DNA of 64,000 bases from Minisyncoccota bacterium (GTDB lineage Bacteria; Patescibacteriota; Minisyncoccia; Phycocordibacterales; Phycocordibacteraceae), in NCBI GenBank assembly GCA_041663025.1, contig JBAZRE010000001.1:5912-69911 (forward strand), written 5' to 3'. The notes under the pieces were generated by a model. That model worked only from the letters and a program-made list of their open reading frames with translations, had not been told where the DNA came from and did no database searches. Below, piece after piece: positions 4,885 through 53,924 of the stretch (positions are counted from its first letter, which is position 1; each line of letters starts with the position of its first letter). Made by a program: the position numbers and the translations under genes.

Positions 4885-4961
4885 TCAACAGAATATGCTA
4901 TTCTCTACCTCAGAGGCTTACAGGAACTAAACGGCTAGACTGCTCTTTTAAGGAGGCAACT

Positions 4962-5156
4962 ATGACAGTCATGAGTGAGGAGGAAAAACGGAAAAGAAAT
5001 GAGGATCTCCGCATTTTTGCCAGCACCGGTGTAGCGTCGCCGGAGCTACAAGCATCAAACGACGCTTTCTTTGCGAGAAATCGTGAGGCAATCAGAGGAG
5101 CGCTCAAGATGCTGGGAGAACATCCCTACGCAGACAAAATCCGATGGTCGAACTAG
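4962..5156 (+). CDS. small hypothetical protein (about 64 aa)
   Basis: Strong SD AAGGAGG sits 5 nt upstream of ATG at 4962 (MTVMSEEEKRKRNEDLRIF…). It is followed by a hairpin plus T-tract terminator. Confidence 0.4.
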   Translation: MTVMSEEEKRKRNEDLRIFASTGVASPELQASNDAFFARNREAIRGALKMLGEHPYADKIRWSN

Positions 5157-5171
5157 TTTTTACTTACGTGC

Positions 5172-5206
5172 AAATGCCCGGCAATTCCCCGGGCATTTCT
5201 TTTTTC
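5172..5206 (+). terminator. rho-independent terminator
   Basis: Hairpin ATGCCCGG-loop-CCGGGCAT followed by TTCTTTTTTC. Confidence 0.6.
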
Positions 5207-5210
5207 ACAC

Positions 5211-5253
5211 TATATCCTTATCTTTACCGACCGGTATTTATAAGAATATTCAG
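5211..5253. repeat. copy-specific direct repeat A1, downstream flank of wHTH-Cas2-like paralog 1
   Basis: ATATCCTTATCTTTACCGACCGGTATTTATAAGAATAT. It is about 80 percent identical over about 40 bp to 5857-5898, and 22 of the first 23 bp match. Confidence 0.6.
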
Positions 5254-5256
5254 AAG

Positions 5257-5838
5257 TTACATTAAAGGAAGATTGAATTGCCGTCGGATACCTTTGTCGT
5301 GTTCTATTGTATCGGCAATTGCATAGAGAACATCCTTGCCTATCTTGAGTTCTGCTTTGAGAAGCGCGATGAAATCTTCGCAATCATAAGGGTAGACCCA
5401 CACGCTATCTTGCAAACGAATGAATCCCACTTCGCGCATGACAGCACATAGACGAAATCTCACTCGGCTTCTTCGTTCGGGAATATCAAAGACGATCATT
5501 CGCCAACGCTTATCCCATTTCTTTTTCTGATTTTTAATAGCAACTTTCGCTTGCTCAAGAGCAACCGCTTTGCGTCCTTTAGGGGTTATTCGTAAAAATT
5601 TCTTTCCATCTCTTTCGATCCAGTTTGCATATCCTTTGGTTACTAAACGCCCTGATGCTGACTTTGCTCTATACCTCAAGTTGTATTTTTCATTTGGCAG
5701 GTATTTGAGGAGCTGAAGAGCGTTCCCAGCGATGGCCGCTACAGCAATAAAGCCCGTGACTGCGACGGCAGCAAGCACTGCGTGTTGGATATCTCGTTTC
5801 TTTTTCCTTTTTCGCGACGTCTCTTCGAGTTTCCCCAT
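5257..5838 (-). CDS. membrane-anchored winged-helix + Cas2-like domain protein (paralog 1 of 3)
   Basis: 193 aa with a basic N-terminus (RKRKKKR) and a TM helix (AVLAAVAVTGFIAVAAIAG). A wing-like segment (GRLVTKGYANWIERDGKKFLRITPKG) follows. The C-terminus WRMIVFDIPERRSRVRFRLCAVMREVGFIRLQDSVWVYPYDCEDFIALLKAELKIG matches the Cas2 pattern by eye (lVvYDI…rR.k..k.l..yG.RvQnSVFec…). Confidence 0.5.
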   Translation of the reverse strand: MGKLEETSRKRKKKRDIQHAVLAAVAVTGFIAVAAIAGNALQLLKYLPNEKYNLRYRAKSASGRLVTKGYANWIERDGKKFLRITPKGRKAVALEQAKVAIKNQKKKWDKRWRMIVFDIPERRSRVRFRLCAVMREVGFIRLQDSVWVYPYDCEDFIALLKAELKIGKDVLYAIADTIEHDKGIRRQFNLPLM

Positions 5839-5856
5839 TAGCTTTAGTATAAATCA

Positions 5857-5898
5857 AATATCCCTATCTTTACCGACCGATTGTTGATAAGGATACGA
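5857..5898. repeat. copy-specific direct repeat A2, upstream flank and promoter region of paralog 1
   Basis: ATATCCCTATCTTTACCGACCGATTGTTGATAAGGATAC. It contains the dyad ATCAA…TTGAT. Confidence 0.6.
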
Positions 5899-14481: not shown

Positions 14482-14514
14482 GAGCCCTCCCGCTCCTTGT
14501 GGGCTTTTTGTTTA
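14482..14514 (+). terminator. rho-independent terminator
   Basis: GAGCCCTCCCGCTCCTTGTGGGCTTTTTGTTT. Confidence 0.6.
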
Positions 14515-14516
14515 TC

Positions 14517-14558
14517 CACTATTTATAACGGTCGTAGATACTTTTTGATATTACTTCA
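14517..14558. repeat. copy-specific direct repeat B1, downstream flank of paralog 2
   Basis: …TTTATAACGGTCGTAGATACTTTTTGATATTAC. The core ACGGTCGT..ATA.TTTTTGATA is shared with 15143-15170. Confidence 0.55.
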
Positions 14559-15132
14559 GACCGAAATGTTCGCGCAGATGCTTATCGTTTTCAATTTCTT
14601 CAACAACCATATACAACACAGCAGACCCAATCTTTAACTCTGCTTTTAACAATGCAACGAAATCCTCACAATCGTATGGAAAGACCCATACGCTATCCTG
14701 TAGACGAACGAAGCCAATTTCCTGCATAAGAATTCGCAATCGATCGCGTGTCTTGCGGCGACGCTCCGGCACGTCAAAGATAACCACGCGCCACCTGCCA
14801 TTCCAGCGGCGTTTTTTGGAGAGATCTAATTTCTTTTTCTCGAGTTCGAAAGTAAGTTTCTTCTGTCCCGCATCCGTGATTTGCGCATATGATTTGCCAT
14901 CCCTTTTTTGAAACGTAACAAGTCCGAGCACTGCAAGCCTCCCAAGTGCAGTACGGTATTGGTAACGTAATTTCGCTCGTTGTAACGGAGGTAGTTTCGC
15001 AAGCGCTCCCGGCAGACCAGGCGCTATGGCCGCGACAAGTACGACACCCGATAGAGCAACAGCGGCAAGCAAACCAGCTTGGACATTTGTACGTATTCTC
15101 TTTTTCTTCGCTCCTGATTCTACATTCCCCAT
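14551..15132 (-). CDS. membrane-anchored winged-helix + Cas2-like domain protein (paralog 2 of 3)
   Basis: 193 aa with a basic N-terminus, a TM helix (AGLLAAVALSGVVLVAAIAPG) and a wing segment (GLVTFQKRDGKSYAQITDAGQKKL). The C-terminus is WRVVIFDVPERRRKTRDRLRILMQEIGFVRLQDSVWVFPYDCEDFVALLKAELKIG. Confidence 0.5.
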   Translation of the reverse strand: MGNVESGAKKKRIRTNVQAGLLAAVALSGVVLVAAIAPGLPGALAKLPPLQRAKLRYQYRTALGRLAVLGLVTFQKRDGKSYAQITDAGQKKLTFELEKKKLDLSKKRRWNGRWRVVIFDVPERRRKTRDRLRILMQEIGFVRLQDSVWVFPYDCEDFVALLKAELKIGSAVLYMVVEEIENDKHLREHFGLK

Positions 15133-15175
15133 ATCAAAAATATACCACGGTCGTGTATAGTTTTTGATACAGAGG
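15130..15175. promoter_or_regulatory. palindromic site B2 in the divergent promoter region between paralog 2 and the 81-aa ORF
   Basis: catATCAAAAAtataccacggtcgtgtatagTTTTTGATacag. It has 8-9 bp inverted arms around a spacer of about 20 bp, and is a diverged direct repeat of 14517-14558. Confidence 0.5.
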
Positions 15176-15856: not shown

Positions 15857-16309
15857 ATGAGTGTCGATATAAAAAACCTCACCCGCCGACATCATGAAGT
15901 TGGGGCGGGTTCTGTGTTTTCTACCATTGCAGCTGACGTACTTCCCGACTGGGATATCTCACTCGTTTTTGTCGGGCCGAAGCAAGCGCAAGAATTAAAT
16001 AAAAAATTACGCGATAAGACCTACATACCCAATGTGCTTTCTTACACCGTTGGCGAGAAGAGTGGCGAGATATTTATTTGCCCGAGTGAGGCAGACAAAC
16101 AAGCGTCTGACTTCAAGCTTCCTGCATCCAGCTTCCTGCTCCTACTCTTTATCCACGGTTTACTTCATATAAAGGGAATGGCGCATGGTGCTACTATGGA
16201 GGCATGCGAGCAAAAACTCCTGAGCTTTTATGGCACGACGCATAGCGACCGGAATCGACATCGGCACGTACCAGATCAAGATGGTCGTCGTCGAGGAGCT
16301 CACCGATAA
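15857..16309 (+). CDS. ybeY: endoribonuclease YbeY (rRNA maturation factor)
   Basis: Internal Met MSVDIKNL… is the probable start. The zinc motif IHGLLHIKGMAHG matches H..LH..G.DH. The 3' end overlaps the ftsA start by about 80 nt in another frame. Confidence 0.75.
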   Translation: MSVDIKNLTRRHHEVGAGSVFSTIAADVLPDWDISLVFVGPKQAQELNKKLRDKTYIPNVLSYTVGEKSGEIFICPSEADKQASDFKLPASSFLLLLFIHGLLHIKGMAHGATMEACEQKLLSFYGTTHSDRNRHRHVPDQDGRRRGAHR

Positions 16310-17390
16310 GCGCACGGGCGTACGGCAGGTGCGTATTCTTGGCACGGGCCTCGCTGAGTCGAAGGGCTTGCGGCATGGCTACATCGTCAATAAAGAAGAA
16401 GTATCTGTCTGCATCCAGAGAGCGAAGAAACAAGCGGAGTCGGTCGCACACGTGCCTATACGAGCTGGGTTCCTCGCCGTCGGCGGTATCTCTCTTGATG
16501 AAGCACGTGCAACTGGCTCTGCAATCATCTCACGCGCTGATCAAGAAATAACTACGCTCGATATCGAAAAGGCCGGAAAGGCAGCGCGTGAAGTTGCTGC
16601 ACCTGGTTTTCTTAATCGACATGTCCTGCACAGCATCCCCCTTGAATATCGAATTGATGGTTCCAAGGTACTTGGCGATCCGCTCGGTATGAAAGGTATA
16701 AAACTCGAGGTCGACTATCTATTTGTTACATGCCTCGCTCAGCATGAAGAGGCACTCTCAAAAGCGGTTGAAGATGCGGATATTGAAATAATTGATCAGA
16801 TGGCTTCCCCACTCGCTGGTTCGTATGTCCTCTTGGAGGGTGACCAGAAGATGAAGGGATGCGTGCTGGCGAACATCGGTGCCGAAACTGTTTCTATTGT
16901 TGTCTATGATGAGGGCATCCCAGTTTCTGTCAAAGTGTTCCCAATGGGTTCGAGCCACATCACAGATGATATTGCACTCGGATTCCGCATCTCACTCGAA
17001 GAAGCTGAACGTGTGAAGCTCGGGCGACTCTCGGGACAGATGTATCCGCGAAAAAAAGTTGATGATCTTGTCGGCAATCGCCTCACTGCGATGTTTGCGC
17101 TCGTTGATAAACATCTCAAATCGCTCGGTCGTCGTGGACCACTGCCGGCCGGCATTATTATTTCTGGTGGCGGTGCTGGCATCGGCTCGGTAAGTGATAT
17201 CGCGAGAGGGTCTCTGAAGCTCCCTTCACGCCTCGCAGAGCTGCGCATCTCTGCTGATACAAAAATTCGTGATGCGACCTGGGCGGTTGCATATGGCCTC
17301 GCGATCTGGGGACTCACTGGCGACACGAATGCTCCAAAAAAGAATTTTCTTGCCTCACTATCAAAATTCTTTCGCCAGTTCTTGCCATAG
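16230..17390 (+). CDS. ftsA: cell division protein FtsA
   Basis: 386 aa with an actin-like fold. GIDIGTYQIKMVVVEE…, …IISGGGAGIGSV…, and a C-terminal amphipathic tail. Confidence 0.85.
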   Translation: MARRIATGIDIGTYQIKMVVVEELTDKRTGVRQVRILGTGLAESKGLRHGYIVNKEEVSVCIQRAKKQAESVAHVPIRAGFLAVGGISLDEARATGSAIISRADQEITTLDIEKAGKAAREVAAPGFLNRHVLHSIPLEYRIDGSKVLGDPLGMKGIKLEVDYLFVTCLAQHEEALSKAVEDADIEIIDQMASPLAGSYVLLEGDQKMKGCVLANIGAETVSIVVYDEGIPVSVKVFPMGSSHITDDIALGFRISLEEAERVKLGRLSGQMYPRKKVDDLVGNRLTAMFALVDKHLKSLGRRGPLPAGIIISGGGAGIGSVSDIARGSLKLPSRLAELRISADTKIRDATWAVAYGLAIWGLTGDTNAPKKNFLASLSKFFRQFLP

Positions 17391-17506
17391 ACAAAATAAA
17401 TAGATTTTGTGTTGACTTTTTGTTGCCTAGCTAGTATAGATGAGTTCGTGAGGTTTTGATCTCACGGGGTGTTCTTTCCATTAACCTATAACGATGGAGG
17501 TGTGAA

Positions 17507-18268
17507 ATGGCTTCGGTCAAAGATCCAAAAACTAAGGCCCAAGAAATGCTCGAGATTGCTCTCGGGAAGAAACGAATCTGCTTCGGTAAATTGTCCAAGA
17601 CAGAGGTTGACGAATTATTGAGGTCGGTGCTGTCAGAAGTCCGTCTCCGGGAGCTACGCGGATTCAAGCCCCTCAGAGAACTTCTCACTTTCCGACCAGG
17701 AAGTGTTGTCTACGGTGGACCGACTCGGCATACCCTTGATGTGGAAGTGCTCGACTTGAGTGAGGATGTTTTGCTCCTAGCTAACGGATTTAAAGATTCT
17801 CCCCCAATCACTTTAGACACACATGTCATGAGTCTGTCTCGTAATGCGGGAAAATGGACAGCCACTTTCAAACGGAACGAATCGGATGAGGAAACTGAAG
17901 ATTACGGAACAGCGTCTTCTTGGGGCCGATCAGCGTACCGTTACAAAGGGAGCGGTGAGGTTTTGACACTCCGGCGATCCCACAATCACACGAGGGCGGA
18001 TGAGAATCTAATCATCACAAAGTTCTCGTACGTTAAGGTTCCACTGAAGCAGAGGTACGTGATTACGAAGATGGAACTACAGCCATTTCCTCTTGAGAAG
18101 TTTCGTCAACATTACGGTTCATCGTATGCTCGAGTAGCCGTTGAGCTCATCCGAGAGCTCGGAAGCGTCTACCGACGAACATCGGACGAACTTGCGTTTC
18201 AATCGGACTCCATGCGCAAAAAAGTCACCGAGTTTGAGAGATTGTCAGAAGCACTTTCGTTCAGATAA
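17507..18268 (+). CDS. hypothetical protein inserted between ftsA and ftsZ
   Basis: 253 aa. SD GGAGGTG before ATG, and a terminator at 18285-18318. No recognisable motifs. Confidence 0.5.
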   Translation: MASVKDPKTKAQEMLEIALGKKRICFGKLSKTEVDELLRSVLSEVRLRELRGFKPLRELLTFRPGSVVYGGPTRHTLDVEVLDLSEDVLLLANGFKDSPPITLDTHVMSLSRNAGKWTATFKRNESDEETEDYGTASSWGRSAYRYKGSGEVLTLRRSHNHTRADENLIITKFSYVKVPLKQRYVITKMELQPFPLEKFRQHYGSSYARVAVELIRELGSVYRRTSDELAFQSDSMRKKVTEFERLSEALSFR

Positions 18269-18284
18269 AATTGTTATTTCTTGT

Positions 18285-18318
18285 AAACCCCACTGAGATT
18301 CGCTCCGGTGGGGTTTTT
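18285..18318 (+). terminator. rho-independent terminator
   Basis: AAACCCCACTGAGATTCGCTCCGGTGGGGTTTTT. Confidence 0.65.
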
Positions 18319-18411
18319 CATATGAAAATAATGAGTCATGTGCATTAGTTGTCAATATTTGCATAACCCAGCGTTCTGCTATCATGGCAGAAACACCTTA
18401 TTTATATTTAT

Positions 18412-19659
18412 ATGTCAAAGCGCATTGAACCAGAGGTTGAGACGTTCGCACGGATTCGGGTGGTTGGCGTCGGTGGCTCGGGCAAAAATGCAGTGAATCA
18501 CATGATCGATTCGAAGGTGCGTGGCGTTGAGTTCATCGCGGTCAACTCTGATGCGCAAGATCTCCACCGGTCGCTCGCCAAGCGCAAGATCCACATCGGA
18601 AAGAATCTCACGAGAGGGCTCGGCACAGGGATGAATCCTGAGCTCGGCAAGCGCGCCGCCGAGGAGACCCGTCAAGAGATCCAAGAAGCACTCTCGGGCA
18701 GCGACATGGTCTTCATCACCTGCGGCATGGGTGGTGGCACCGGCACTGGAGCCTCTGCGATTATTGCAAAAATAGCGAAAGAGGTCGGTGCACTCGTCAT
18801 CGCGGTCGTGACGAAACCATTTTCCTTTGAGGGTGCACAGCGCAAAGATATCGCCGAGCGCGGTCTCGCCGAATTGAAGAAAGAGGTTGATGCATTCATA
18901 GTCATCCCAAATGACAAACTACTCGCGATTGTCGATAAGGATACGTCAGCAAAAAGCGCCTTCGCGATGTGTGACGAGATCTTGCGCCAAGCGGTCGAGG
19001 GCGTCTCCGACATTATTACGACTCCTGGTGATATCAATACCGACTTTAACGACATCAAGGCAATTATGGAGGGTGCCGGCCCTGCTCTCATGGGTATCGG
19101 CATCGCTGAAGGTGACGAACGAGCTCGTGAGGCCGCACGCCAGGCGGTCAATTCCCCACTCCTTGATGTTTCTATTAGTGGTGCAAAAGGCATTCTCTTC
19201 GTCGTGGCTGGATCTGATGATCTCGGCATCATGGAGGTACAAGAGGCCGCAAAGGTTATAAGTGAATCTATCGACAAGAGCGCGAAGGTTATCTTCGGCA
19301 TTATGCGCGATGAGAAACTTAAGAAGGGCCAGATTCGCATTATCGTCATCGCAACTGGTTTCCCAGAGGGAGCGATACACACATCTACAGTCGAGCGTTC
19401 TCTATTCTCGATGCCGGTAGAAAAACATGAGGAAGAACGTGGTCGCATTTATCATGAGATTCTAAAGCGTGAAGAAAAAGAAGAGAAACCGGAGGTTAAG
19501 GTTGAGAAAAACTTGACTGTCGAAAGCACTCCTTTTGGCGGAAAGGAAGAACCTATCGTCACGGCACTGCCGCACAAGCGCGAGGTGATTCCTGTTGTTC
19601 CAGAAGATGATGAATCCTGGGGCGCAATTCCGGCATTTTTGCGCCGTCATAAAAAGTAG
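18412..19659 (+). CDS. ftsZ: cell division protein FtsZ
   Basis: 415 aa. GVGGSGKNAV…, the tubulin signature GGGTGTG and the T7 loop are all present. Confidence 0.95.
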   Translation: MSKRIEPEVETFARIRVVGVGGSGKNAVNHMIDSKVRGVEFIAVNSDAQDLHRSLAKRKIHIGKNLTRGLGTGMNPELGKRAAEETRQEIQEALSGSDMVFITCGMGGGTGTGASAIIAKIAKEVGALVIAVVTKPFSFEGAQRKDIAERGLAELKKEVDAFIVIPNDKLLAIVDKDTSAKSAFAMCDEILRQAVEGVSDIITTPGDINTDFNDIKAIMEGAGPALMGIGIAEGDERAREAARQAVNSPLLDVSISGAKGILFVVAGSDDLGIMEVQEAAKVISESIDKSAKVIFGIMRDEKLKKGQIRIIVIATGFPEGAIHTSTVERSLFSMPVEKHEEERGRIYHEILKREEKEEKPEVKVEKNLTVESTPFGGKEEPIVTALPHKREVIPVVPEDDESWGAIPAFLRRHKK

Positions 19660-19671
19660 TTTTGTTTTGAA

Positions 19672-19703
19672 TGGAAAAAGGCAGATTCTCATCTGCCTTT
19701 TTT
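19672..19703 (+). terminator. rho-independent terminator
   Basis: GGAAAAAGGCAGATTCTCATCTGCCTTTTTT. Confidence 0.65.
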
Positions 19704-19725
19704 GATGCTTCACGCGTCAAGAAGA

Positions 19726-20502
19726 TTACCCCTCAACTAACGGCTTCATCCTCGGCCAGCAATCCCGTGATGGCACCCCTTCTGAGGAATGAGGAGGCCA
19801 CTCTTGTACATAACCCCAGCAGAGTTTGGGTCGCCCACCAAAGTTTTTTTCGGCAGAGACAGCCATCCGCTTATCTCTGTTTTCGTTTCCCCCAAAACGC
19901 GACCCGAGTGCTGAAATGTAGCCGATCCTTGAGAGAACGTCTGTGTGCACACAAAGCGCGACAACTTCTGTGATGGTCAGCGGAAATCGATTTTGTTTCG
20001 CAAGGAGCTTCTCAGCATTTTTCTCGTTTGCCTCGATTGATGTCGTTCCGTCATTTATGTCGAAGATGTAGCTCAGCGCACTTGTCTTTTCAACATCCTC
20101 AACCGAATAACTGTGGTCGGCATAACCGACTTTACCATCGGTGGTTCGTATCATAGCCATGAGATCATAGACGGTGCGCTGATCTAATGAAATGACCGGC
20201 AAGAACGGGATATTCCATTTGCCCAAAGTCATTTCCATCGCATGCCGCATAACATCTCCTTTGCTGTTACGAAGCCATCTCCTAATCGGTTCGGGAACAC
20301 CGCGTTCTATGAGAGTCGCGATTTGACTCTCAAAAAGTTTGTCGAACTCCTTCCATCTGGTGATCTCACTGTTGGCGTGTGCCACGGTAGCATCGATTTT
20401 TTCTCTGAAATCATCAATGGTTTCGAACGGTTCCATAATTGCTTTGACTAACTTATTGTCTGTCTCTATTCTTTCTTTCATCTCCCACCTCCCTATAAAC
20501 AC
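19726..20502 (-). CDS. hypothetical protein, downstream partner of paralog 3
   Basis: 258 aa with no recognisable motifs. The palindromic site C1 (20591-20649) lies about 90-150 bp upstream of its start. Confidence 0.45.
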   Translation of the reverse strand: MFIGRWEMKERIETDNKLVKAIMEPFETIDDFREKIDATVAHANSEITRWKEFDKLFESQIATLIERGVPEPIRRWLRNSKGDVMRHAMEMTLGKWNIPFLPVISLDQRTVYDLMAMIRTTDGKVGYADHSYSVEDVEKTSALSYIFDINDGTTSIEANEKNAEKLLAKQNRFPLTITEVVALCVHTDVLSRIGYISALGSRFGGNENRDKRMAVSAEKNFGGRPKLCWGYVQEWPPHSSEGVPSRDCWPRMKPLVEG

Positions 20503-20590
20503 AGTTATTTGTTATATCTCAAACACCCTAATCCGCCGTAAGTTAACTCCTTTGTCGCCGAAAAGTCAAAGTGATTGTACTAAGCCGGCT

Positions 20591-20649
20591 CATGTATCAA
20601 TTTTCATCCTATAGGATAAGAATTGAGACAACTTACTTTCACAAGTCAT
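20591..20649. promoter_or_regulatory. repeat C1: palindromic TCCTATAGGA-centred site upstream of 19726..20502 and downstream of paralog 3
   Basis: CATGTATCAATTTTCATCCTATAGGATAAGAATTGAGACAACTTAC. It is a near-duplicate of 21225-21276. Confidence 0.55.
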
Positions 20650-21227
20650 AGGAGTCGGAAGTGTTCCCGAAGTCGGCGATCTGATTCAAGTGCCTCGGCA
20701 ACGAATGAGAGCATTTCGCCCGTACCGCTCTTGAGGTGTGCGCGGACAAGCCCGATGAATTCATCACAGGGATATGGATATATCCAGACACTGTCCTGAA
20801 GCCTCAAGAAACCAGCGCCCATGAGAAGAGTCCGTAGTTGCGAACGAGCTCGCCTGCGCTTCTCGCGGATATCAAACATAACGACGCGCCACTTGCCATC
20901 CCAGAATACTGGTGCAGGAATGCGGTATTCGTTTGCGTACACCGTTCCAATCACCGCACGACCCTTTTCGGTCAACGAGGCATTGCGGTGTCCATACTTT
21001 CCTGATGTCTTTACGAGACCGGCGTACTCGAGACGGGTTATTGCCTGCGTGATACGACGGTACAAATCTTTCCGATTCGCCACACCACGATCAAGTTTTT
21101 TCAGAATGGTCAGTACCCTCGGAGCGACGAGTGCGACACCGAGCGCCCCACTCACTGCTAGCGTTCGCAAAATGAGATTGCGCATTGGCAGATATTTCCC
21201 GCGCGTTTCCGTCCGCATTTTCTTCAT
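20646..21227 (-). CDS. membrane-anchored winged-helix + Cas2-like domain protein (paralog 3 of 3)
   Basis: 193 aa with a hydrophobic helix (LAVSGALGVALVAP) and a recognition helix plus wing (ITRLEYAGLVKTSGKYGHRNASLTEKG). The C-terminus is WRVVMFDIREKRRRARSQLRTLLMGAGFLRLQDSVWIYPYPCDEFIGLVRAHLKSG. Confidence 0.5.
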   Translation of the reverse strand: MKKMRTETRGKYLPMRNLILRTLAVSGALGVALVAPRVLTILKKLDRGVANRKDLYRRITQAITRLEYAGLVKTSGKYGHRNASLTEKGRAVIGTVYANEYRIPAPVFWDGKWRVVMFDIREKRRRARSQLRTLLMGAGFLRLQDSVWIYPYPCDEFIGLVRAHLKSGTGEMLSFVAEALESDRRLREHFRLL

Positions 21228-21276
21228 GTATCAAATTATATCCTATAGGACAGAAATTGAGACATGTTATTAACAA
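21225..21276. promoter_or_regulatory. repeat C2: roughly 42 bp imperfect palindrome overlapping the paralog 3 start codon and promoter
   Basis: CATGTATCAA-attata-TCCTATAGGA-cagaaa-TTGAGACATG. The outer arms match 9/10 as inverted repeats around a perfect 10-bp core palindrome. Confidence 0.6.
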
Positions 21277-21322
21277 TAGGTAGAAATTCTGTTCAATGCA
21301 TAGAAAGTGATAGAATAGGGCG

Positions 21323-22246
21323 ATGTACGATTTAATAATCATCGGCGGGGGGCCGGCGGGGGTGGCTGCAGGCATTTATGCAGCACGGAAACATCTAAAA
21401 GCGGTTCTGATTGCTGAAGAGATCGGCGGACAATCTGTTGTCTCAAGCGGCATAGAGAATTGGATCGGTATGCCGAAGATCAGTGGTGCAGATTTTGCGA
21501 AGTCTATGAGAGAGCATCTCGAGGTGGTGAAGGGCGATATTGTCACGCTCGCCATCGGCGAGCGTGTCGTCTCGCTTGAATCCCAACTTGGCGGTTTCAC
21601 CGCCAAAACAAAATCAGGCAAAGAATTTTCTGCAAAAGCTGTCCTCATTGCTTCTGGTGCCAGCCGCCGCAAGCTTGATATCCCGGGCGCAGATAAGTTT
21701 GAACATAAGGGTGTCACCTACTGCGCCTCCTGCGACGGCCTCCTCTTCTCGGGTATGGACGTCGCGGTGGTCGGTGGCGGTAATGCCGGTTTTGAGACGG
21801 CACTCCAACTTCTCGCGTATGCGAAATCGGTCACCCTTATTCATCGTCATGCAGAATTCAAGGCTGATCAGATAACAATAGAGAAAACGCGTGCTCATCC
21901 CAACATGCACATTATTGCTCATGCCGAGCCGACTGAAGTCATCGGCGAACAGTTTGTCACTGGTTTAAAATATAAAGACAAAGGGTCTGATGAAATAAGA
22001 GAAGTGAGTGTGTCTGGTATATTTGTCGAAGCGGGCGTTGTACCGAATACACAGTTTGCCGAAGGGTTTGTTGAGCTTGATGCGGTAAAAAGAGTGAAGA
22101 CCGATCCTCATAACCAACACACGAGCGTTGAGGGCATCTGGGCTGCCGGTGACTGCACCGACGAGCTCTACCATCAGAACAACATCGCCGCCGGCGACGG
22201 CGTTAAAGCAGCAGAAGATATTTATCTTTGGATCAAGAAGCAATAA
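21323..22246 (+). CDS. trxB: thioredoxin-disulfide reductase
   Basis: 307 aa. FAD motif DLIIIGGGPAG, redox-active CASCDG, and NAD(P) motif VAVVGGGNAG. Confidence 0.9.
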   Translation: MYDLIIIGGGPAGVAAGIYAARKHLKAVLIAEEIGGQSVVSSGIENWIGMPKISGADFAKSMREHLEVVKGDIVTLAIGERVVSLESQLGGFTAKTKSGKEFSAKAVLIASGASRRKLDIPGADKFEHKGVTYCASCDGLLFSGMDVAVVGGGNAGFETALQLLAYAKSVTLIHRHAEFKADQITIEKTRAHPNMHIIAHAEPTEVIGEQFVTGLKYKDKGSDEIREVSVSGIFVEAGVVPNTQFAEGFVELDAVKRVKTDPHNQHTSVEGIWAAGDCTDELYHQNNIAAGDGVKAAEDIYLWIKKQ

Positions 22247-26672: not shown

Positions 26673-27891
26673 AACCTCGTGTGACGAGACCGCAATTGCG
26701 ATACTCGAGTGCACTGGAGATGAAACGCATGCTGAGTTTAAAGTACTTGGGAACGCACTCCTCTCACAAATAGAAATTCACAAACAATATGGCGGCGTCT
26801 TCCCTGCCCTCGCAAAACGCGAGCACGCGAAGAATCTCGTGCCGATTCTCGAGGCAGCACTCGAGGAAGCAGAGCTATTGCATGAAGACACCCAAGCAAT
26901 CGCGGATGAGACCCGCGCCAAAATTTCAGAAATTTTGGCGCGTGAGCCCGGTCTCACTGAAACGTTTTTCGAATTCATTTCTGAATGTGAGCCTCCTGCG
27001 ATCGACGAAATCGCCGTCACGGCCGGCCCCGGCCTCGAGCCGGCGCTCTGGGTCGGTATTAATTTTGCAAAGGCGCTCGCGCTCGTTTGGCAGAAGCCGC
27101 TAGTCGCGGTGAACCATATGGAGGGACACATACTCGCCGCACTTGCTCGGCAAGAAGCACGAAGCACGAAGCACGAAGAACCAAACGAATCTCAAACAGA
27201 AAAATTGGAAATTAAAAATGTGCAATTCCCCATACTCGCCCTCCTGATTTCTGGTGGACACACGCAGCTCGTCTTGATGCGTGAATGGCTTCAGTACGAG
27301 CTTATTGGAGAGACGCGTGATGATGCTGTTGGCGAGGCCTTCGATAAGGTTGCGCGCATGCTCGCACTCCCCTACCCTGGCGGTCCTGAGATCTCCAAGC
27401 TTGCAGAAGAAGTTAGGACATCGAATGTCCTAGTTTCTGAAATAGGACATTCGATGTCCAGACCCGAATTCAAACTCCCGAGGCCAATGATCAATGAAAA
27501 CAGCTGCGACTTCTCATTTGCCGGACTAAAAACTGCGGTGTTAAATTTATTGAAAAAGATCCCCGACATAAGTGACGATGATAAGAAACACATAGCGCAC
27601 GAATTCGAAAATGCCGTCACTGATGTTTTGTGGAAGAAGACTGCGCGTGCACTTGAAGAAACTGGCGCCCAAACACTCATCATCGGTGGTGGCGTCTCGG
27701 CCAACACTCACATCAAGCGGACTTTCCAAGAAAATGTCTCCCAAGAATTTTCTGAAGTTGCACTCAAGATACCGGCGGCATCGCTCTCAACCGATAACGC
27801 TATTATGATTGCCATCGCTGGCTACTATCGTGCCTTGCGCAAAGAATTTTCAAATGATTTTGTTGCAAATGGCAACCTCCCTCTTATCTGA
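26647..27891 (+). CDS. tsaD: tRNA N6-adenosine threonylcarbamoyltransferase TsaD (Kae1/YgjD family)
   Basis: MKILAIETSCDETAIAI…NHMEGHILA…ISGGHTQL…GGGVSAN. It carries two in-frame insertions. Confidence 0.9.
   Translation: MKMKILAIETSCDETAIAILECTGDETHAEFKVLGNALLSQIEIHKQYGGVFPALAKREHAKNLVPILEAALEEAELLHEDTQAIADETRAKISEILAREPGLTETFFEFISECEPPAIDEIAVTAGPGLEPALWVGINFAKALALVWQKPLVAVNHMEGHILAALARQEARSTKHEEPNESQTEKLEIKNVQFPILALLISGGHTQLVLMREWLQYELIGETRDDAVGEAFDKVARMLALPYPGGPEISKLAEEVRTSNVLVSEIGHSMSRPEFKLPRPMINENSCDFSFAGLKTAVLNLLKKIPDISDDDKKHIAHEFENAVTDVLWKKTARALEETGAQTLIIGGGVSANTHIKRTFQENVSQEFSEVALKIPAASLSTDNAIMIAIAGYYRALRKEFSNDFVANGNLPLI
27413..27462. repeat. in-frame palindromic element inside tsaD
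   Basis: GGACATCGAATGTCC – 14 nt – GGACATTCGATGTCC. Each 15-mer is self-complementary and the two are reverse complements. It encodes RTSNVLVSEIGHSMSRP. Confidence 0.8.
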
Positions 27892-40155: not shown

Positions 40156-40827
40156 ATGACAAAGAGAGATGCCCCGTTTGCTGTCGGCGAGTGGTACCAC
40201 TGCTACAACCGTGGTATTGAAAAGCGTACCGTGTTTGAAGATACCAGGGATTATCATCGCTTTCTCGAACTCCTTTACTTGGCAAATGATGAGTTCCCTC
40301 TCCGGCGTGAAGATATCGGCACATATAAATTTGAAGAAATATTAAAGATTCCCCGCGGCAAGAAATTGGTCGCCATTGGAGCGTTCTGCCTGATGCCTAA
40401 CCACTTCCATCTGGTGCTGAAGGAGATCTCGGAGGGAGGTATCACCGCATTTATGCGAAAAATCGGAACATCCTATACTTTGTATTTTAATGCACGGCAT
40501 GAGAGGACTGGAAACCTCTTCCTAAAGCCATTCCGATCCCTTCATGTATCTAACGACCGTTACTTCCAACACCTCATTAACTATGTTCACTGCAATCCAG
40601 CAGCTCTCTATGAACCTGGGTGGAAAACTAACCAGGTTGTGGACCCTCAATTCTTGGGAGAACAGATTGCAGCTTATCCATACTCAAGTCTTGGTGCCCA
40701 TACTGGTGCACACCCATCGACCAGACCCATCCTGGATGCAGAAGTATTCTCCATAACGCATACTGTTCGGATACAAAAGATGCTGCAAGAAGCACGACAG
40801 TATTACGCTGATTCTAATCTTCCGTAA
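40156..40827 (+). CDS. IS200/IS605-family Y1 (HUH) transposase-like protein, REP-associated (RAYT-like)
   Basis: ATG at 40156 (MTKRDAPF…) is preferred. The N-terminal part of the longer track ORF overlaps the REP hairpins. WYHCYNRG…, the HUH motif CLMPNHFHLVL, and the catalytic Tyr region YVHCNPAA. Confidence 0.75.
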   Translation: MTKRDAPFAVGEWYHCYNRGIEKRTVFEDTRDYHRFLELLYLANDEFPLRREDIGTYKFEEILKIPRGKKLVAIGAFCLMPNHFHLVLKEISEGGITAFMRKIGTSYTLYFNARHERTGNLFLKPFRSLHVSNDRYFQHLINYVHCNPAALYEPGWKTNQVVDPQFLGEQIAAYPYSSLGAHTGAHPSTRPILDAEVFSITHTVRIQKMLQEARQYYADSNLP

Positions 40828-40874
40828 GGCCGTAAGGTGTCACTTTACGTCAGGCGTAAAGTGACACCTTACGG
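40822..40874. repeat. compound REP-like hairpin (family 1) downstream of the RAYT gene
   Basis: CCGTAAGG + CCGTAAGGTGTCACTTTACG-tcaggc-CGTAAAGTGACACCTTACGG (a 20-bp stem). Confidence 0.8.
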
Positions 40875-40898: not shown

Positions 40899-41241
40899 CG
40901 GACTGAACTAAGCGATCGCCCGCCAACATCTGCGAAGTTGTGGCGGGAGGAAAGTCCGAACATACTCCTGCCGTAAGGCGGGAAAATAGGTAGCGGGTAA
41001 CGCCCGTCGTCCGTGAGGATAGAGGTGACCACAGAAACGTCCTGAGCGAAAGTGAAGGAATTCCCTCGTGGAATACGCCCGTCGCGAGATGGGAATGCAA
41101 CGACTAAATCCTTACCCGTATGCAAGGCCGTGCCCGACCACACTTCGAGTGTGACGGGAGTGACGCTTAAGGCGTTGAGTAATTAACGGCTCAGATAAAT
41201 GATCGCTCACGACAGAATTCGGCTTATCGGCTCAGTCCACA
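40899..41241 (+). ncRNA. rnpB: RNase P RNA (bacterial type A-like)
   Basis: P1 pairs GGACTGA (40900-40906) with TCAGTCC (41232-41238). The P4 5' strand is GGGAGGAAAGTCCGAACA, the P4 3' strand is ACAGAATTCGGCTTATCGG, and the internal sequence GCGAAAGTGAAGG is also present. Confidence 0.8.
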
Positions 41242-41248
41242 AAGATGC

Positions 41249-52306: not shown

Positions 52307-52346
52307 AAACAAGGGTGCCCCTTGCAGCAAGGGGCACCCTTGTTTT
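52307..52346. repeat. GC-rich REP-like hairpin (family 2) between recG and 52346..53182
   Basis: AAAACAAGGGTGCCCCTTG-cagca-AGGGGCACCCTTGTTTT (stem of at least 15 bp). It may also act as a bidirectional terminator. Confidence 0.8.
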
Positions 52347-53182
52347 TACTCCGCCGTTTCTTCTTTCCCCTTATCTCTCTCCGCAACAAACTTTTTTACT
52401 TCTTCATAACTCATCTGCTTGGGCCAACGAAGATCTCCTTCTTCATTATAAATGGGCAACAGCAATTCAGGTTTGTCTTTGTATGCCTCTATTTGAGCAT
52501 CAAGAGTTCCGTAATCACCAACAATCCCGCGGAAATAGCGTGGCGCTAAGCGATGACTAAGGGCAAAACCATCTTCGCTAGTTACGATGGTTGCACCTTC
52601 CTCATTCAATTGATCATCATGAAATCCATGCAAATTATCCATCGCACGATAGGTCCGACTCTTGCCTGGAAATAATTCCGAAGCTCTTTTGCTTTTGCCC
52701 ATCTCAACCCTTTCAGAAAACGATGATAGATCGAAAATTATAAAGACATTTGGATTGCGACGACTCATCCAGTGAGAGTCTTTTATTGATTGGGGTTGTT
52801 CATATTTATATGCGTCCATCCTCCCGAGAATATTGAAGAAAACATTCCCGCCCGATGACTCTCCATCCCTCAAATTTTTTGACCAATTTTCTTTGGATAT
52901 TTCTGTCTTTCCCCAAGTAAAATCTGGACATCCCAGCAATCCTTCACGATATATTTTCGCTAGAACTTCTTTTTTTAGACTATGTTCACCCCCGCCACCA
53001 GCATCTCTGGTTACGTTAATTTGAGTAAAAGCTGTTCCCTTTTTATTGATGTCCTGCACTTTCTCCATTATCTTCTCAATCGTTTCTGGTGAGAGATCTT
53101 TTTCTAGCTCTTCGAGACTCTTTTCTTCTGGCACACTCTCGACCTTTGGCGCTTCTGGCTTTTGCGGTCCTTCTAGGCTCAT
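52346..53182 (-). CDS. hypothetical protein bracketed by family-2 REP hairpins
   Basis: 278 aa, acidic N-terminus (…PEEKSLEELEKDLSPETIEKIMEK…). No recognisable motifs. Confidence 0.45.
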   Translation of the reverse strand: MSLEGPQKPEAPKVESVPEEKSLEELEKDLSPETIEKIMEKVQDINKKGTAFTQINVTRDAGGGGEHSLKKEVLAKIYREGLLGCPDFTWGKTEISKENWSKNLRDGESSGGNVFFNILGRMDAYKYEQPQSIKDSHWMSRRNPNVFIIFDLSSFSERVEMGKSKRASELFPGKSRTYRAMDNLHGFHDDQLNEEGATIVTSEDGFALSHRLAPRYFRGIVGDYGTLDAQIEAYKDKPELLLPIYNEEGDLRWPKQMSYEEVKKFVAERDKGKEETAE

Positions 53183-53222
53183 GGGAAGAATAATATCATC
53201 AAATCAACCGTTGCAAGCATTG

Positions 53223-53269
53223 CAAGGGTGCCCCTTGTATCTTGCACAAGCTTACAAGGGGCACCCTTG
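53223..53269. repeat. REP-like hairpin (family 2) upstream of the second RAYT gene
   Basis: CAAGGGTGCCCCTTG – 17 nt – CAAGGGGCACCCTTG. Confidence 0.8.
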
Positions 53270-53293
53270 TTAGGTTACGATAGTAAATAAGTT

Positions 53294-53923: not shown

Positions 53924-53924
53924 C

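What the first reader, a model, noticed from the sequence alone, without database searches (positions are those of the whole stretch)
5211..5898. Paralog 1 is flanked by a roughly 40 bp direct repeat (5211-5253 and 5857-5898)
The repeat reads ATATCC(T/C)TATCTTTACCGACCG(G/A)T…ATAAG(A/G)ATA and is about 80 percent identical, with 22/23 identity in the first half. One copy is just upstream of the start and the other just past the stop. This matches the pattern at the other two paralogs, so it looks like a property of the gene family rather than chance. Either there are two operator sites per locus, or these are long target duplications from cassette-like insertion. A roughly 35 bp duplication also flanks the insertion at the gdh 3' end (separate finding), which shows that long flanking duplications do occur in this genome.
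Basis: seen in the sequence. Interest (0 to 1): 0.55.

Follow-up and report, generated by a model that had tools for sequence, protein, structure and literature searches.

The report
Operator palindromes bracketing PaaX-like genes
Each of three related DNA-binding-protein genes in this Paceibacteria (candidate phyla radiation) genome is bracketed by two copies of its own 38-base palindromic binding site; the arrangement holds across the whole gene family, and the same palindromes also occur alone elsewhere, including in frame inside housekeeping genes.

Summary
The repeat is real. Sites 5212-5249 and 5858-5896 match at 32 of 38 aligned columns and bracket a 193-aa minus-strand gene. P2 and P3 show the same layout with different repeat sequences.

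Each repeat is a 38-40 bp split palindrome: outer arm, spacer, CGGTCG or CTATAG core, spacer, outer arm. This is the geometry of the E. coli PaaX operator (6-N27-6). The genes encode truncated PaaX-like proteins: a hydrophobic N-terminus, a winged helix and a Cas2-like domain.

The bracket is family-wide, seen in at least 71 of 81 loci. P1 orthologues are syntenic in 19 species and carry both copies. The upstream copy overlaps the promoter of a leaderless gene. The downstream copy starts 0-30 nt past the stop.

Identity between copies falls to background exactly at the site edges and dips in the spacers. That is a binding-site profile, not duplicated target DNA. Two 84%-identical paralogues differ by compensated 2-bp changes in all four arms, and also in the recognition helix and wing.

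Target-site duplication is therefore not supported; two cognate binding sites per gene is.

Unexpectedly, orphan copies exist at gene tails, in mixed arrays, and in frame in tsaD, uvrC, holB and miaA. Their distribution in tsaD is patchy. A REP/RAYT-like mobile reading stays open.

The parts
5257..5838 (-). Paralogue 1: 193-aa truncated PaaX-like protein with an N-terminal hydrophobic segment, a minimal winged helix and a Cas2-like PaaX_M domain, and no PaaX_C domain
   Evidence: ORF. Pfam PF20803 E 1.5e-16. AF2 model and Foldseek top hit E. coli PaaX 8a39. Orthologues are 64-83% identical and syntenic in 19 species.
5858..5896 (.). P1 upstream site: split palindrome with arms ATATCCCTATC / GATAAGGATA and core CGACCG at 5874-5879. 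It ends 20 nt before the ATG and covers the -35/spacer region of the promoter.
5212..5249 (.). P1 downstream site: split palindrome with arms ATATCCTTATC / ATAAGAATAT and core CGACCG at 5228-5233. It starts 8 nt past the stop and lies between P1 and the bidirectional terminator (5172-5198) of a convergent small ORF.
5846..5851 (-). -10-like hexamer TATACT, 7 nt before the ATG, with no Shine-Dalgarno motif; implies a leaderless mRNA
   Evidence: Sequence. A TAnnnT hexamer starts at -13/-12 in 67 of 80 family loci, and an SD-like motif occurs in 5 of 80. Conserved in P1 orthologues.
14551..15132 (-). Paralogue 2 (47% identical to P1)
15132..15169 (.). P2 upstream site. In gene sense it reads TATCAAAAACTATACACGACCGTGGTATATTTTTGATA. 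It abuts the ATG, and the -10 (TATATT) lies inside its right arm.
14513..14550 (.). P2 downstream site, abutting the stop codon, between convergent genes. Its dyad symmetry is the weakest of the six sites (8 of 16 arm pairs).
20646..21227 (-). Paralogue 3 (35% identical to P1)
21227..21264 (.). P3 upstream site. In gene sense it reads TGTCTCAATTTCTGTCCTATAGGATATAATTTGATACA, with the -10 TATAAT in its right arm. It abuts the ATG.
20593..20630 (.). P3 downstream site, 16 nt past the stop and about 114 nt upstream of the co-directional DUF5701 gene

Best explanation
The two repeats are two copies of the cognate DNA-binding site of the protein encoded between them. The protein is a truncated PaaX-type regulator, with a winged helix plus a Cas2-like dimerisation domain. 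Like E. coli PaaX, it should bind as a dimer to a roughly 38-bp split palindrome: the two winged helices on the outer arms, and the conserved CGGTCG or CTATAG core under the dimer axis.

The upstream copy overlaps the core promoter of the leaderless gene, so occupancy should shut off the gene's own transcription (autorepression). The downstream copy, placed 0-30 nt after the stop codon in nearly every family member, is a second cognate site. It probably cooperates with the first, either by looping out the roughly 640-bp gene or by acting as a boundary or roadblock at the 3' end.

Each paralogue has its own arm sequence, so the paralogues are insulated from one another.

Shown here: the repeat, its dyad symmetry, its family-wide position, the promoter overlap, the binding-site-like conservation profile, and arm/protein co-variation in one natural pair. 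Inferred: actual binding, repression, and whatever the downstream copy does.
For: 1. Protein identity. PF20803 PaaX_M scores E 1e-16 to 1e-20 in all three paralogues. The best structural match of the AF2 model is E. coli PaaX 8a39, then Rv0674, then Cas2 proteins.

2. Site geometry. The sites are dyads of 38-40 bp. The E. coli PaaX operator is TGATTC-N27-GAATCA, 39 bp (PMC9493321).

3. Family-wide occurrence. For 77 species loci, the upstream-versus-downstream flank alignment has a median score of 24, against 8 for mismatched pairs. Sites were placed automatically in 71 of 81 loci, and 124 flanking sites were found in 80 loci.

4. Fixed positions. The upstream copy ends at -17 to -23 from the ATG or runs into it. 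The downstream copy starts within 0-30 nt of the stop in 68 of 71 loci.

5. Leaderless promoter. A TAnnnT hexamer starts at -13/-12 in 67 of 80 loci, and an SD-like motif is present in 5 of 80.

6. Conservation profile. Identity between the two copies is 0.2-0.3 outside the 38 bp, 0.86-0.94 in the outer arms, 0.56-0.68 in the inner spacers and about 0.9 next to the core. Dyad symmetry follows the same profile.

7. Specificity switch. P3 and P0177 have arms TGTCTCAAT/ATTGAGACA. P0126 (84% identical, probably the same genome) and P0122 have TGTCGGAAT/ATTCCGACA, in all four arms. The type-specific residues are R65/D in the recognition helix and KY/ER at the wing tip.

8. Vertical inheritance. P1 keeps both copies at a syntenic position in 19 species.

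9. Not an RNA or hairpin element. There is no G:U excess on the sense strand, single-strand folding is weak at -0.8 to -6.9 kcal/mol, and no Rfam family matches.
Against: - The downstream copy has no promoter to act on in many loci. The next gene is convergent in 30 of 77 loci, including P1 and P2 here.
- The centre-to-centre spacing (613-677 bp) shows no helical phasing.
- Ordinary autoregulation does not explain the orphan copies: in frame inside tsaD, uvrC, holB and miaA, at gene tails and never in divergent promoter regions, or in mixed arrays.
- A repressor has no obvious need for the invariant Cas2-type motifs FD[IV]PE and RLQDSVW, which canonical PaaX-like Rv0674 lacks.
- The N-terminal hydrophobic segment with a positive N-side predicts that the DNA-binding part lies outside the membrane.
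- The simple sigma-70 scan finds no full -35/-10 consensus at P1.
- A global test did not show arm divergence tracking the winged helix better than the Cas2-like domain.
Confidence: 0.55

Rival explanations
1. REP/RAYT-like system. The 38-bp palindromes are a low-copy family of mobile or insertion-prone DNA. The bracketed gene encodes the factor that recognises them and spreads or maintains them, possibly with the Cas2-like domain acting as a nuclease. The two flanking copies would be the element's own ends or its nearest cognate copies, as REPs flank a RAYT gene. Binding and autoregulation could still occur, but the reason the sites exist would be propagation rather than regulation.
For: - A metagenome scan with a P1-type pattern gave 68 genuine-looking sites. 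Of these, 24 flank 193-aa genes and 44 are orphans with no such gene nearby.
- Of the 30 orphans that could be classified, 7 lie between convergent genes, 11 between co-directional genes, none between divergent genes, and 12 fell inside long ORFs, most of them recognisable genes.
- In TsaD the palindrome encodes a 10-13 aa loop insertion relative to solved structures. Of 120 Paceibacteria TsaD homologues, 102 are empty, 14 are filled and 4 carry another palindromic insert at the same spot.
- With the insert masked, the 13 filled sequences that were placed in the tree fall into 11 separate clades of a neighbour-joining tree. For 8 of the 13 the nearest relative is empty.
- Mixed arrays of 2-3 site types sit 44-53 bp apart after terminators, like BIMEs.
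- The P2 and P3 units, with both palindromes, occupy different contexts in different genomes.
- Cas2 hallmark residues are invariant.
- The REPIN-RAYT precedent is a single-copy, vertically inherited gene flanked by its cognate palindromes (PMC3116915 and PMC3337134, listed).
Against: - The protein is not an HUH/Y1 transposase, and no transposase-like chemistry is known for PaaX_M or Cas2 alone.
- Copy number is low: no orphans in this 64-kb window, and roughly 10 in 590 kb around family genes.
- The hairpins are weak and AT-rich, unlike REPs.
- Orphans on one contig, and orthologous orphans, share arms and core but not spacers. This looks like selection for binding rather than recent copying.
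- No target-site duplication is visible at unit borders.
- No relatives occur in viral contigs.
- The patchiness in tsaD could also come from repeated precise loss, or from recombination between lineages.
Confidence: 0.3
2. The downstream copy is simply the operator of the next transcription unit. Each regulator would control itself and its downstream neighbour, and the 'bracket' would be a by-product of compact genomes.
For: - The next gene is co-directional in 47 of 77 loci.
- In several P1 orthologues (L002, L007, L012, L016) the downstream site lies in the 100-150 bp before the methyltransferase operon.
- P3's downstream site is about 114 nt upstream of the DUF5701 gene.
Against: - In 30 of 77 loci, including P1 and P2 of this window, the next gene is convergent and a terminator follows the site.
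- The site is tied to the stop codon (0-30 nt), not to the start of the next gene. That distance varies from 100 to 1460 bp among P1 orthologues.
- Downstream neighbours differ between subfamilies.
Confidence: 0.07
3. Long target-site duplication. The gene was inserted as a cassette with staggered cuts about 38 bp apart, so that a pre-existing palindromic site was duplicated, as a CRISPR repeat is duplicated when a spacer is integrated.
For: - The geometry fits: an insert between direct copies of a roughly 38-bp palindrome, and a Cas2-like protein.
- Solo copies that could serve as empty sites exist.
- In a few loci the similarity runs on past the palindrome into the promoter and first codons (L010, L032).
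Against: - Conservation between the copies is position-specific, not uniform.
- The upstream copy carries the gene's own -10 and even the AT of the ATG in the P2/P3 class, so it cannot be mere target DNA.
- P1 is syntenic with both copies in 19 species.
- Empty configurations (ftsZ-trxB in L195, gyrA-methyltransferase in L039) hold no solo copy.
- There is no Cas1 or CRISPR array; tandem-repeat and Rfam scans of the window are negative.
Confidence: 0.04
4. The palindromes act as hairpins in RNA or single-stranded DNA: 5'/3' UTR stem-loops, terminators or mRNA stabilisers.
For: Each copy is self-complementary, and the downstream copy would be transcribed.
Against: - With a leaderless start at the ATG, the upstream copy is not transcribed.
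- Mismatches show no excess of G:U-compatible pairs on the sense strand: 70 on the sense strand, 108 on the antisense strand, 304 other.
- Folding energies are weak, and for three of the six sites more than 5% of shuffled sequences fold at least as well.
- No T-run follows the sites.
- The inner spacers are often not complementary.
- A hairpin model gives no reason for the two copies to match each other.
Confidence: 0.03

Closest known systems
E. coli / Pseudomonas PaaX repressor and its TGATTC-N27-GAATCA operator
   Same: Winged helix followed by a Cas2-like central domain (PF20803), with the PaaX crystal structure 8a39 as the best structural match. A long split-palindromic site of about 39 bp. 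A site overlapping the regulator's own promoter, as PaaX occludes the Px promoter.
   Different: Lacks the C-terminal effector (PaaX_C) domain and scores far below the TIGR02277 cut-off. Has no paa genes nearby. Has a hydrophobic N-terminal segment and keeps Cas2-type motifs. Has a conserved central hexamer in the site, a second site after the stop codon, and orphan copies inside genes.
Cas2 of CRISPR-Cas adaptation modules
   Same: Ferredoxin-like fold. The strand-1 FD[IV] motif aligns with Cas2 YDI, and RLQDSVW with QxSVF. TIGR01573 is above its cut-off for P2 and P3, so NCBI names the family 'CRISPR-associated endonuclease Cas2'.
   Different: Fused to a winged helix. No CRISPR array was found in the window; cas1 was not searched for. 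The repeats flank the gene itself rather than spacers.
REPIN-RAYT systems and REP/BIME elements of proteobacteria
   Same: A single-copy, vertically inherited gene flanked by its own cognate palindromes. Each paralogue has its own palindrome type. Dispersed copies sit at gene tails. Mosaic arrays of different palindrome types occur.
   Different: RAYT is an HUH/Y1 transposase acting on stable GC-rich single-strand hairpins present in tens to hundreds of copies. Here the protein is PaaX/Cas2-like, the sites are weakly folding AT-rich dyads that look like duplex binding sites, and the copy number is low.
Rickettsia palindromic elements (RPE)
   Same: Palindromic DNA inserted in frame into loops or linkers of housekeeping proteins, with presence/absence between relatives. 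The comparison rests on my own knowledge of RPEs.
   Different: RPEs are about 100-150 bp and have no known cognate protein. Here the insert is 38-42 bp and matches the binding site of a resident protein.
Auxiliary operators and DNA looping (lac O2, gal OI, deo)
   Same: One operator at the promoter plus a second, distal, cognate operator downstream (from my own knowledge).
   Different: The second site lies after the end of the gene, 613-677 bp away, without helical phasing. No tetramerisation element is known in this protein.

Membership tests
PaaX family (GntR-type phenylacetyl-CoA repressor) | N-terminal winged helix followed by the central Cas2-like PaaX_M domain | tested here: met
   PF20803 E 1.5e-16, 4.3e-20 and 3.4e-17. 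Foldseek top hits 8a39 (E 6e-5) and 3kfw. The model has helix 52-67, wing 71-84 and a ferredoxin-like domain at 108-190.
PaaX family (GntR-type phenylacetyl-CoA repressor) | C-terminal helical effector domain (PaaX_C) and full-length equivalog score | tested here: not met
   The proteins end at residue 193, right after PaaX_M, and have no PaaX_C hit. TIGR02277 scores 31-43 bits against a cut-off of 264.55.
PaaX family (GntR-type phenylacetyl-CoA repressor) | Long split-palindromic operator (6-N27-6, 39 bp) overlapping target promoters | tested here: met
   Dyads of 38-40 bp against TGATTC-N27-GAATCA. The upstream copy overlaps a leaderless promoter. The sequence itself is different, and binding was not tested.
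PaaX family (GntR-type phenylacetyl-CoA repressor) | Association with paa catabolic genes | tested here: not met
   The neighbours are gyrA, a methyltransferase, ftsA/ftsZ, a trxB-like gene and DUF5701. In other genomes they are infB, dnaG and rpoC.
CRISPR Cas2 | Cas2 fold with the conserved acidic residue at the end of strand 1 | tested here: met
   TIGR01573 scores 26.3 and 28.4 bits (cut-off 24.5) for P2 and P3, and 20.1 for P1. Foldseek hits many Cas2 structures. D118 is invariant in 38 sequences. That D118 is the equivalent of the catalytic Asp is inferred from motif alignment.
CRISPR Cas2 | Encoded next to cas1 and a CRISPR array | tested here: not met
   No CRISPR-like array in the window and no CRISPR RNA family. 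None of the called neighbours in L195 and L198-L201 is Cas1. A systematic Cas1 search was not run.
REPIN-RAYT / REP | The gene encodes an HUH Y1 (RAYT) transposase | tested here: not met
   Pfam and NCBIfam give only PaaX_M and Cas2.
REPIN-RAYT / REP | The gene is flanked by its cognate palindromes, with type-specific pairing of gene and palindrome | tested here: met
REPIN-RAYT / REP | Tens to hundreds of dispersed extragenic copies forming stable hairpins | tested here: not met
   No orphans in the 64-kb window and about 10 in 590 kb. Single-strand folding is -0.8 to -6.9 kcal/mol. Orphans do exist, but in low numbers.
Transposon / cassette target-site duplication | The flanking repeats are copies of target DNA, unrelated between independent insertions and uniformly similar within a pair | tested here: not met
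   One architecture across the family. Position-specific identity profile. The -10 element and the start codon lie inside the upstream copy.
Transposon / cassette target-site duplication | The empty site carries a single copy of the repeat | tested here: not met
   The ftsZ-trxB spacer of L195 and the gyrA-methyltransferase spacer of L039 carry no family palindrome. Both comparisons are with fairly distant genomes.

The most novel reading that the evidence does not exclude
The 38-bp palindromes are a new kind of domesticated mobile DNA in Patescibacteria, and their cognate factor is a winged-helix/Cas2-like protein rather than a transposase of any known class. The gene is bracketed by its own palindromes, as a RAYT gene is by REPs. 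Solo copies are repeatedly gained or lost at the same spots, including in frame inside tsaD, uvrC, holB and miaA, and they pile up in mixed arrays. In its boldest form, the direct duplication of a roughly 38-bp palindrome around an insert next to a Cas2 homologue would parallel CRISPR repeat duplication and would bear on how Cas2 and palindromic repeats first came together.
Probability: 0.3. Interest if true: 0.85.

Novelty: new variant of a known kind. Interest (0 to 1): 0.65.

Why it matters
This family has thousands of members in Paceibacteria and relatives. It is annotated as 'Cas2', 'PaaX' or 'hypothetical', and I found no paper on it.

If the main reading holds, these are small self-contained regulator/operator units with paralogue-specific recognition codes. 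One natural specificity switch can be read directly from sequence: TC to GG in the arms, paired with R65 to D and KY to ER in the protein. That makes a good model for how regulators diverge after duplication in organisms that cannot yet be cultured.

The 3' operator and the orphan sites are not explained by textbook autoregulation. This applies especially to the orphans kept in frame inside essential genes with a patchy distribution. They point either to a chromosome-level role for these proteins or to a REP-like element driven by a Cas2-fold protein, which would be new.

In practice, the 'CRISPR-associated endonuclease Cas2' label in public annotation is misleading for these genes.

Tried and rejected
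- **Chance.** Rejected.
- **Helical phasing of the two sites.** None at periods of 10-11.5 bp.
- **Directional recombination site.** The asymmetric central GT/AC dinucleotide has the same orientation in 19 loci and is flipped in 9, and it also flips between orthologous orphan sites. Orientation is therefore not constrained.
- **RNA hairpin.** Rejected by the G:U test, the folding energies and Rfam.
- **Extra cognate copies near the genes.** Only one was found (L030, at -341) in 430 kb.
- **Global arm/protein correlation.** Arm divergence correlates equally with winged-helix and Cas2-domain divergence (0.48 each; partial correlations 0.29 each). The test is inconclusive and dominated by phylogeny.
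- **Remnants of a tandem duplicate after the downstream copy.** Convincing in only about two loci (L010, L032); the aligner extended the match in 10 of 81, mostly weakly.
- **Conserved neighbour of orphan sites (a regulon).** None found.
- **Phage carriage.** No relatives in IMG/VR.
- **Full sigma-70 consensus at P1.** Not found by the simple scan. The promoter call rests on the positional conservation of the -10 element.
- **Pattern specificity in the metagenome scan.** The accepted, shorter one also picked up about 22 chance matches, nearly all in two recurrent coding sequences, and these were set aside.
- **Literature.** No paper links PaaX-like or Cas2-like proteins, Patescibacteria and palindromes.
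Full report
**1. The observation**

The finding concerns a 193-aa ORF on the minus strand, 5257-5838.
- On the + strand, ATATCCTTATCTTTACCGACCG (5212-5233) recurs as ATATCCCTATCTTTACCGACCG (5858-5879), a 21/22 match.
- Over the whole unit (5212-5249 against 5858-5896), 32 of 38 aligned columns are identical, with one 1-nt indel.
- The 22-mer with up to three mismatches occurs only at these two places in 64 kb, against 0.01 expected.
- One copy ends 20 nt upstream of the ATG. The other starts 8 nt past the stop.

tblastn finds two paralogues, both 193 aa and both on the minus strand: 14551-15132 (47% identity) and 20646-21227 (35%). Each is flanked in the same way by its own repeat:
- 14513-14550 / 15132-15169, spacing 619 bp.
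- 20593-20630 / 21227-21264, spacing 634 bp.

A scan of the window for core hexamers flanked by complementary arms picks out the six sites as the six strongest candidates among CGGTCG/CGACCG/CTATAG cores. The weakest (14513-14550, 8 of 16 arm pairs) is within the chance range.

**2. The protein**

- All three paralogues match Pfam PF20803, the central Cas2-like domain of PaaX (E 1e-16 to 1e-20). They match Cas2 weakly. There is no PaaX_C domain.
- NCBIfam PaaX scores far below its cut-off. The cas2 model is just above its cut-off for P2 and P3. This explains why public records call these proteins 'CRISPR-associated endonuclease Cas2', 'PaaX' or 'hypothetical'.
- The AF2 model has mean pLDDT 75, and at least 90 across most of the C-terminal domain. 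It shows a low-confidence N-terminal helix, helix 52-67, a beta-hairpin wing at 71-84, helix 86-102, and a ferredoxin-like domain at 108-190.
- The best structural match is E. coli PaaX (8a39, E 6e-5). M. tuberculosis Rv0674 follows, then a series of Cas2 structures. Sequence-profile hits agree.
- Invariant residues across 38 sequences, spanning paralogues only 35% identical, include W108, W112, R113, F117, D118, E121, R123, R127, Q143, S145, V146 and W147. L142 and D144 are at least 90% conserved. These form the FD[IV]PE and RLQDSVW motifs. They resemble Cas2 motifs and are absent from Rv0674 in the alignment.
- Residues about 20-40 are strongly hydrophobic (Kyte-Doolittle 1.9-2.5 over 19 residues), with a net charge of +4 to +6 on the N-side.

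**3. The site and its match to PaaX**

The site has this layout: outer arms of about 11 bp (often TATCC... or TATCA...), inner spacers, a central hexamer, and the mirrored half, 38-40 bp in all.

The central hexamer is CGGTCG/CGACCG in 62 sites (plus a few variants with one extra base), CTATAG in 29 and CGGCCG in 7.

The published E. coli PaaX site is TGATTC-N27-GAATCA, 39 bp (PMC9493321, read). The geometry is therefore the one expected for a PaaX-type dimer whose two winged helices sit about three helical turns apart.

**4. The bracket is family-wide and old**

A scan of one genome per GTDB species returned 80 loci, all Patescibacteria.
- Local alignment of the 110 nt upstream against the 110 nt downstream gave a median score of 24. 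Flanks paired across different loci gave 8.
- Automated placement found both palindromes in 71 of 81 loci, counting the three of the window.
- Most of the remainder have them on inspection: overlapping the stop codon in L048, L058, L068 and L078; further away in L015, L032 and L070.
- The upstream copy falls into two position classes. It either ends at -17 to -23 from the ATG (the P1 class) or its last bases are the AT of the ATG (the P2/P3 class). The downstream copy starts 0-30 nt after the stop in 68 of 71 loci.
- P1 orthologues (64-83% identical) sit in one syntenic block in 19 species: MBL-fold gene, small gene, gyrA, P1, a variable 100-1460 bp, methyltransferase, binding protein. Both copies are present throughout.

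The repeats are therefore not scars of a recent insertion.

**5. The upstream copy is at the promoter of a leaderless gene**

- A TAnnnT hexamer starts at -13 or -12 relative to the A of the ATG in 67 of 80 loci. Random positions give about one in 80.
- Only 5 of 80 loci have a Shine-Dalgarno-like motif.
- In P1 the hexamer is TATACT at 5846-5851. In P2 and P3 it lies inside the right arm of the palindrome.
- A simple consensus scan finds no complete -35/-10 pair at P1. The promoter call therefore rests on positional conservation.

A protein bound to the upstream copy would cover the -35/spacer region (P1 class) or the -10 and the transcription start (P2/P3 class). This is the position of a repressor.

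**6. The repeat has the conservation profile of a binding site, not of duplicated DNA**

Fifty locus pairs were aligned on the central hexamer. Identity between the upstream and downstream copy of the same locus is:

| Region | Identity |
|---|---|
| Outside the 38 bp | 0.2-0.3 |
| Outer arms | 0.86-0.94 |
| Inner spacers | 0.56-0.68 |
| Next to the core | about 0.9 |

Dyad symmetry follows the same curve.

The four arms of one locus differ at 19% of positions. Arms of different loci differ at 59%.

The asymmetric central dinucleotide (GT or AC) has the same orientation in 19 loci and is flipped in 9. A symmetric dimer would allow this; a directional recombination site would not.

There is no excess of G:U-compatible mismatches on the sense strand. 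Single-strand folding is weak. No Rfam family matches. The constraint therefore acts on duplex DNA.

**7. A natural specificity switch**

P3-like proteins at least 81% identical occur with two arm types.
- The window's P3 and P0177 have TGTCTCAAT...ATTGAGACA.
- P0126 and P0122 have TGTCGGAAT...ATTCCGACA, in all four arms of each locus.
- P0126 is 84% identical to P3. Its longest contig has the same length (148,432 bp) and the same sources as the window's own proteins, so it is probably a fourth paralogue of this genome lying outside the window.

The residues that separate the two types are A50/T, R65/D near the end of the recognition helix, and K/Q77-Y78 versus E-R at the wing tip. These are the positions where a winged helix touches DNA.

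Among P1 orthologues, L005 and L008 share both the arm variant TTGTTATC and the helix variant RHQ.

A global test was inconclusive. Arm divergence correlates equally with winged-helix and Cas2-domain divergence.

**8. What the downstream copy is not**

- It is not generally the operator of the next gene. That gene is convergent in 30 of 77 loci, including P1 and P2 here, where a terminator follows the site.
- It is not phased with the upstream copy. Spacing is 613-677 bp, and the Rayleigh test is not significant at periods of 10-11.5 bp.
- It is not a terminator hairpin.

Its function is inferred only. I favour cooperation with the upstream site (a loop enclosing the gene) or a 3' boundary. 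This step is unproven.

**9. Orphan copies: the unexpected part**

A metagenome scan with a P1-type pattern found 114 stretches of DNA, of which the 80 listed were examined.
- About 22 matches were set aside as chance hits, nearly all in two recurrent coding sequences. This left 68 genuine-looking sites.
- Of the 68, 24 flank 193-aa genes. The other 44 have no PaaX-like gene anywhere in the locus.
- Neighbours of the orphans are diverse, and no conserved target gene emerges.

Thirty of the orphans could be classified by context:

| Context | Count |
|---|---|
| Between convergent genes | 7 |
| Between co-directional genes | 11 |
| Between divergent genes | 0 |
| Inside long ORFs | 12 |

The genes that could be identified among the long ORFs are:
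- TsaD, where the site encodes NILMDSRPSQDKNI.
- A UvrC homologue, in the linker before the endonuclease domain.
- The clamp-loader delta' subunit, just after its SRC-type motif.
- MiaA.

Three of the twelve are not true intragenic cases. One lay upstream of the real start of a yqeY-like gene, one in a spurious ORF, and one on the antisense strand of an unrecognised PaaX-like gene.

Many orphans stand in arrays of two or three different palindrome types, 44-53 bp apart start to start, often right after an intrinsic terminator. The types in these arrays are those that flank other paralogues.

Orthologous arrays (L099/L116, L102/L148) and two orphans on one contig (L085, L113) share arms and core but not spacers.

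Orphans are rare. There are none in this window, and about ten in 590 kb around family genes.

**10. Gain and loss in tsaD**

- Against solved TsaD structures, the palindrome-coded stretch is a 10-13 residue loop insertion.
- Among 120 Paceibacteria TsaD homologues (68-100% identical), 102 have the short loop. Fourteen carry the palindrome-coded insert at exactly this place. Four carry a different insert there.
- At the DNA level, two filled genes whose proteins are only 73% identical keep nearly perfect arms, for example AATATCCTTAT...ATAAGGATATT. An empty gene has none. The other insert in the one gene examined is an 18-bp perfect palindrome.
- With the insert masked, the 13 filled sequences that were placed in the tree fall into 11 separate clades of a neighbour-joining tree. 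For 8 of 13 the nearest relative is empty.

This means repeated insertion at one spot, repeated precise loss, or recombination between lineages. Any of these makes the site dynamic in a way a regulatory operator is not expected to be.

**11. Do the gene units move?**

- P1 does not move on this timescale.
- P2 orthologues are syntenic with one another in nine species. None of their neighbours is present in this window, where P2 lies near ftsA.
- P3-like genes lie in three contexts: ftsZ/trxB here, aminotransferase/infB, and dnaG/rpoC.
- In L195, ftsZ and trxB are adjacent, with a 99-bp spacer and no palindrome. The window has a DUF5701 gene plus the whole P3 unit at that position.
- In L039, gyrA and the methyltransferase are adjacent without P1 and without a solo site.

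The units relocate over long times together with both palindromes. The two empty sites I could examine carry no single copy, and no target duplication is visible outside the palindromes. No relatives are found in viral contigs.

**12. Conclusion**

The repeats are the paired cognate binding sites of a truncated PaaX-type, Cas2-fold DNA-binding protein. The upstream one is an autoregulatory operator on a leaderless promoter.
- I put 0.55 on this as the primary function, with the role of the 3' copy unresolved.
- A REP/RAYT-like reading, in which these palindromes are insertion-prone DNA tied to a Cas2-fold protein, is not excluded. The orphan data actively support it (0.3).
- The target-duplication reading is not supported (0.04).

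Nothing in the searched literature describes this arrangement. I rate it a new variant of a known kind, with real potential to be more than that.

Noticed in passing
window 52310-53967: The 15-mer CAAGGGGCACCCTTG occurs seven times exactly (0.09 expected). It forms three inverted doublets that would make long GC-rich hairpins (52310/52328, 53223/53255, 53927/53953), plus a solo copy at 53436. The last doublet abuts a tRNA gene (53975-54048). It looks like a separate, REPIN-like repeat family.
   Followed up: partly
window 27416-27459 and 50500-50540: Two places each carry a pair of near-palindromic 15-mers (GGACATCGRATGTCC), 26-29 bp apart (0.2 expected). They look like the double operator of some other regulator.
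   Followed up: partly
window 40831-40873: A 43-nt palindrome with a nearly perfect stem lies just upstream of the RNase P RNA gene (40900-41242). The tandem-repeat finder also flags 40819-40873.
   Followed up: no
window 4885-5256, and L001-L019 downstream of the P1 orthologue: The stretch between P1's downstream site and the methyltransferase gene varies from about 100 to 1460 bp among 19 otherwise syntenic species. In the window it holds a convergent 64-aa ORF (4962-5156) with no Pfam match, plus a bidirectional terminator (5172-5198).
   Followed up: partly
window 5257-5838, 14551-15132, 20646-21227 (residues about 20-40 of each protein): A hydrophobic segment (Kyte-Doolittle 1.9-2.5) follows a strongly basic N-terminus. 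The usual topology rule would place the DNA-binding part outside the cell, which conflicts with chromosomal cognate sites. AF2 confidence is low in this region.
   Followed up: partly
L197 (tsaD of another Paceibacteria genome), loop equivalent to L105 TsaD residues about 290-305: The TsaD loop that takes the PaaX-type palindrome carries, in four other homologues, a different insert (peptide ..MIYHT..). In L197, the one gene examined at the DNA level, this insert is an 18-bp perfect palindrome, GGTATGATATATCATACC.
   Followed up: partly
L030 3661-3698; L081 5666-5797; L093 32-1522: Some genomes hold a third cognate copy 341 bp upstream of the gene (L030), or several orphan sites of different types within a few kb (L081, L093). 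Orphan density therefore varies a good deal between lineages.
   Followed up: no
window 16230-22246: The cell-division genes ftsA (16230-17390) and ftsZ (18412-19659) and a trxB-like gene (21323-22246) are interrupted here by an unknown 253-aa ORF (17507-18268), and by a DUF5701 gene plus P3 (19726-21227). In L195 the three genes are contiguous.
   Followed up: partly
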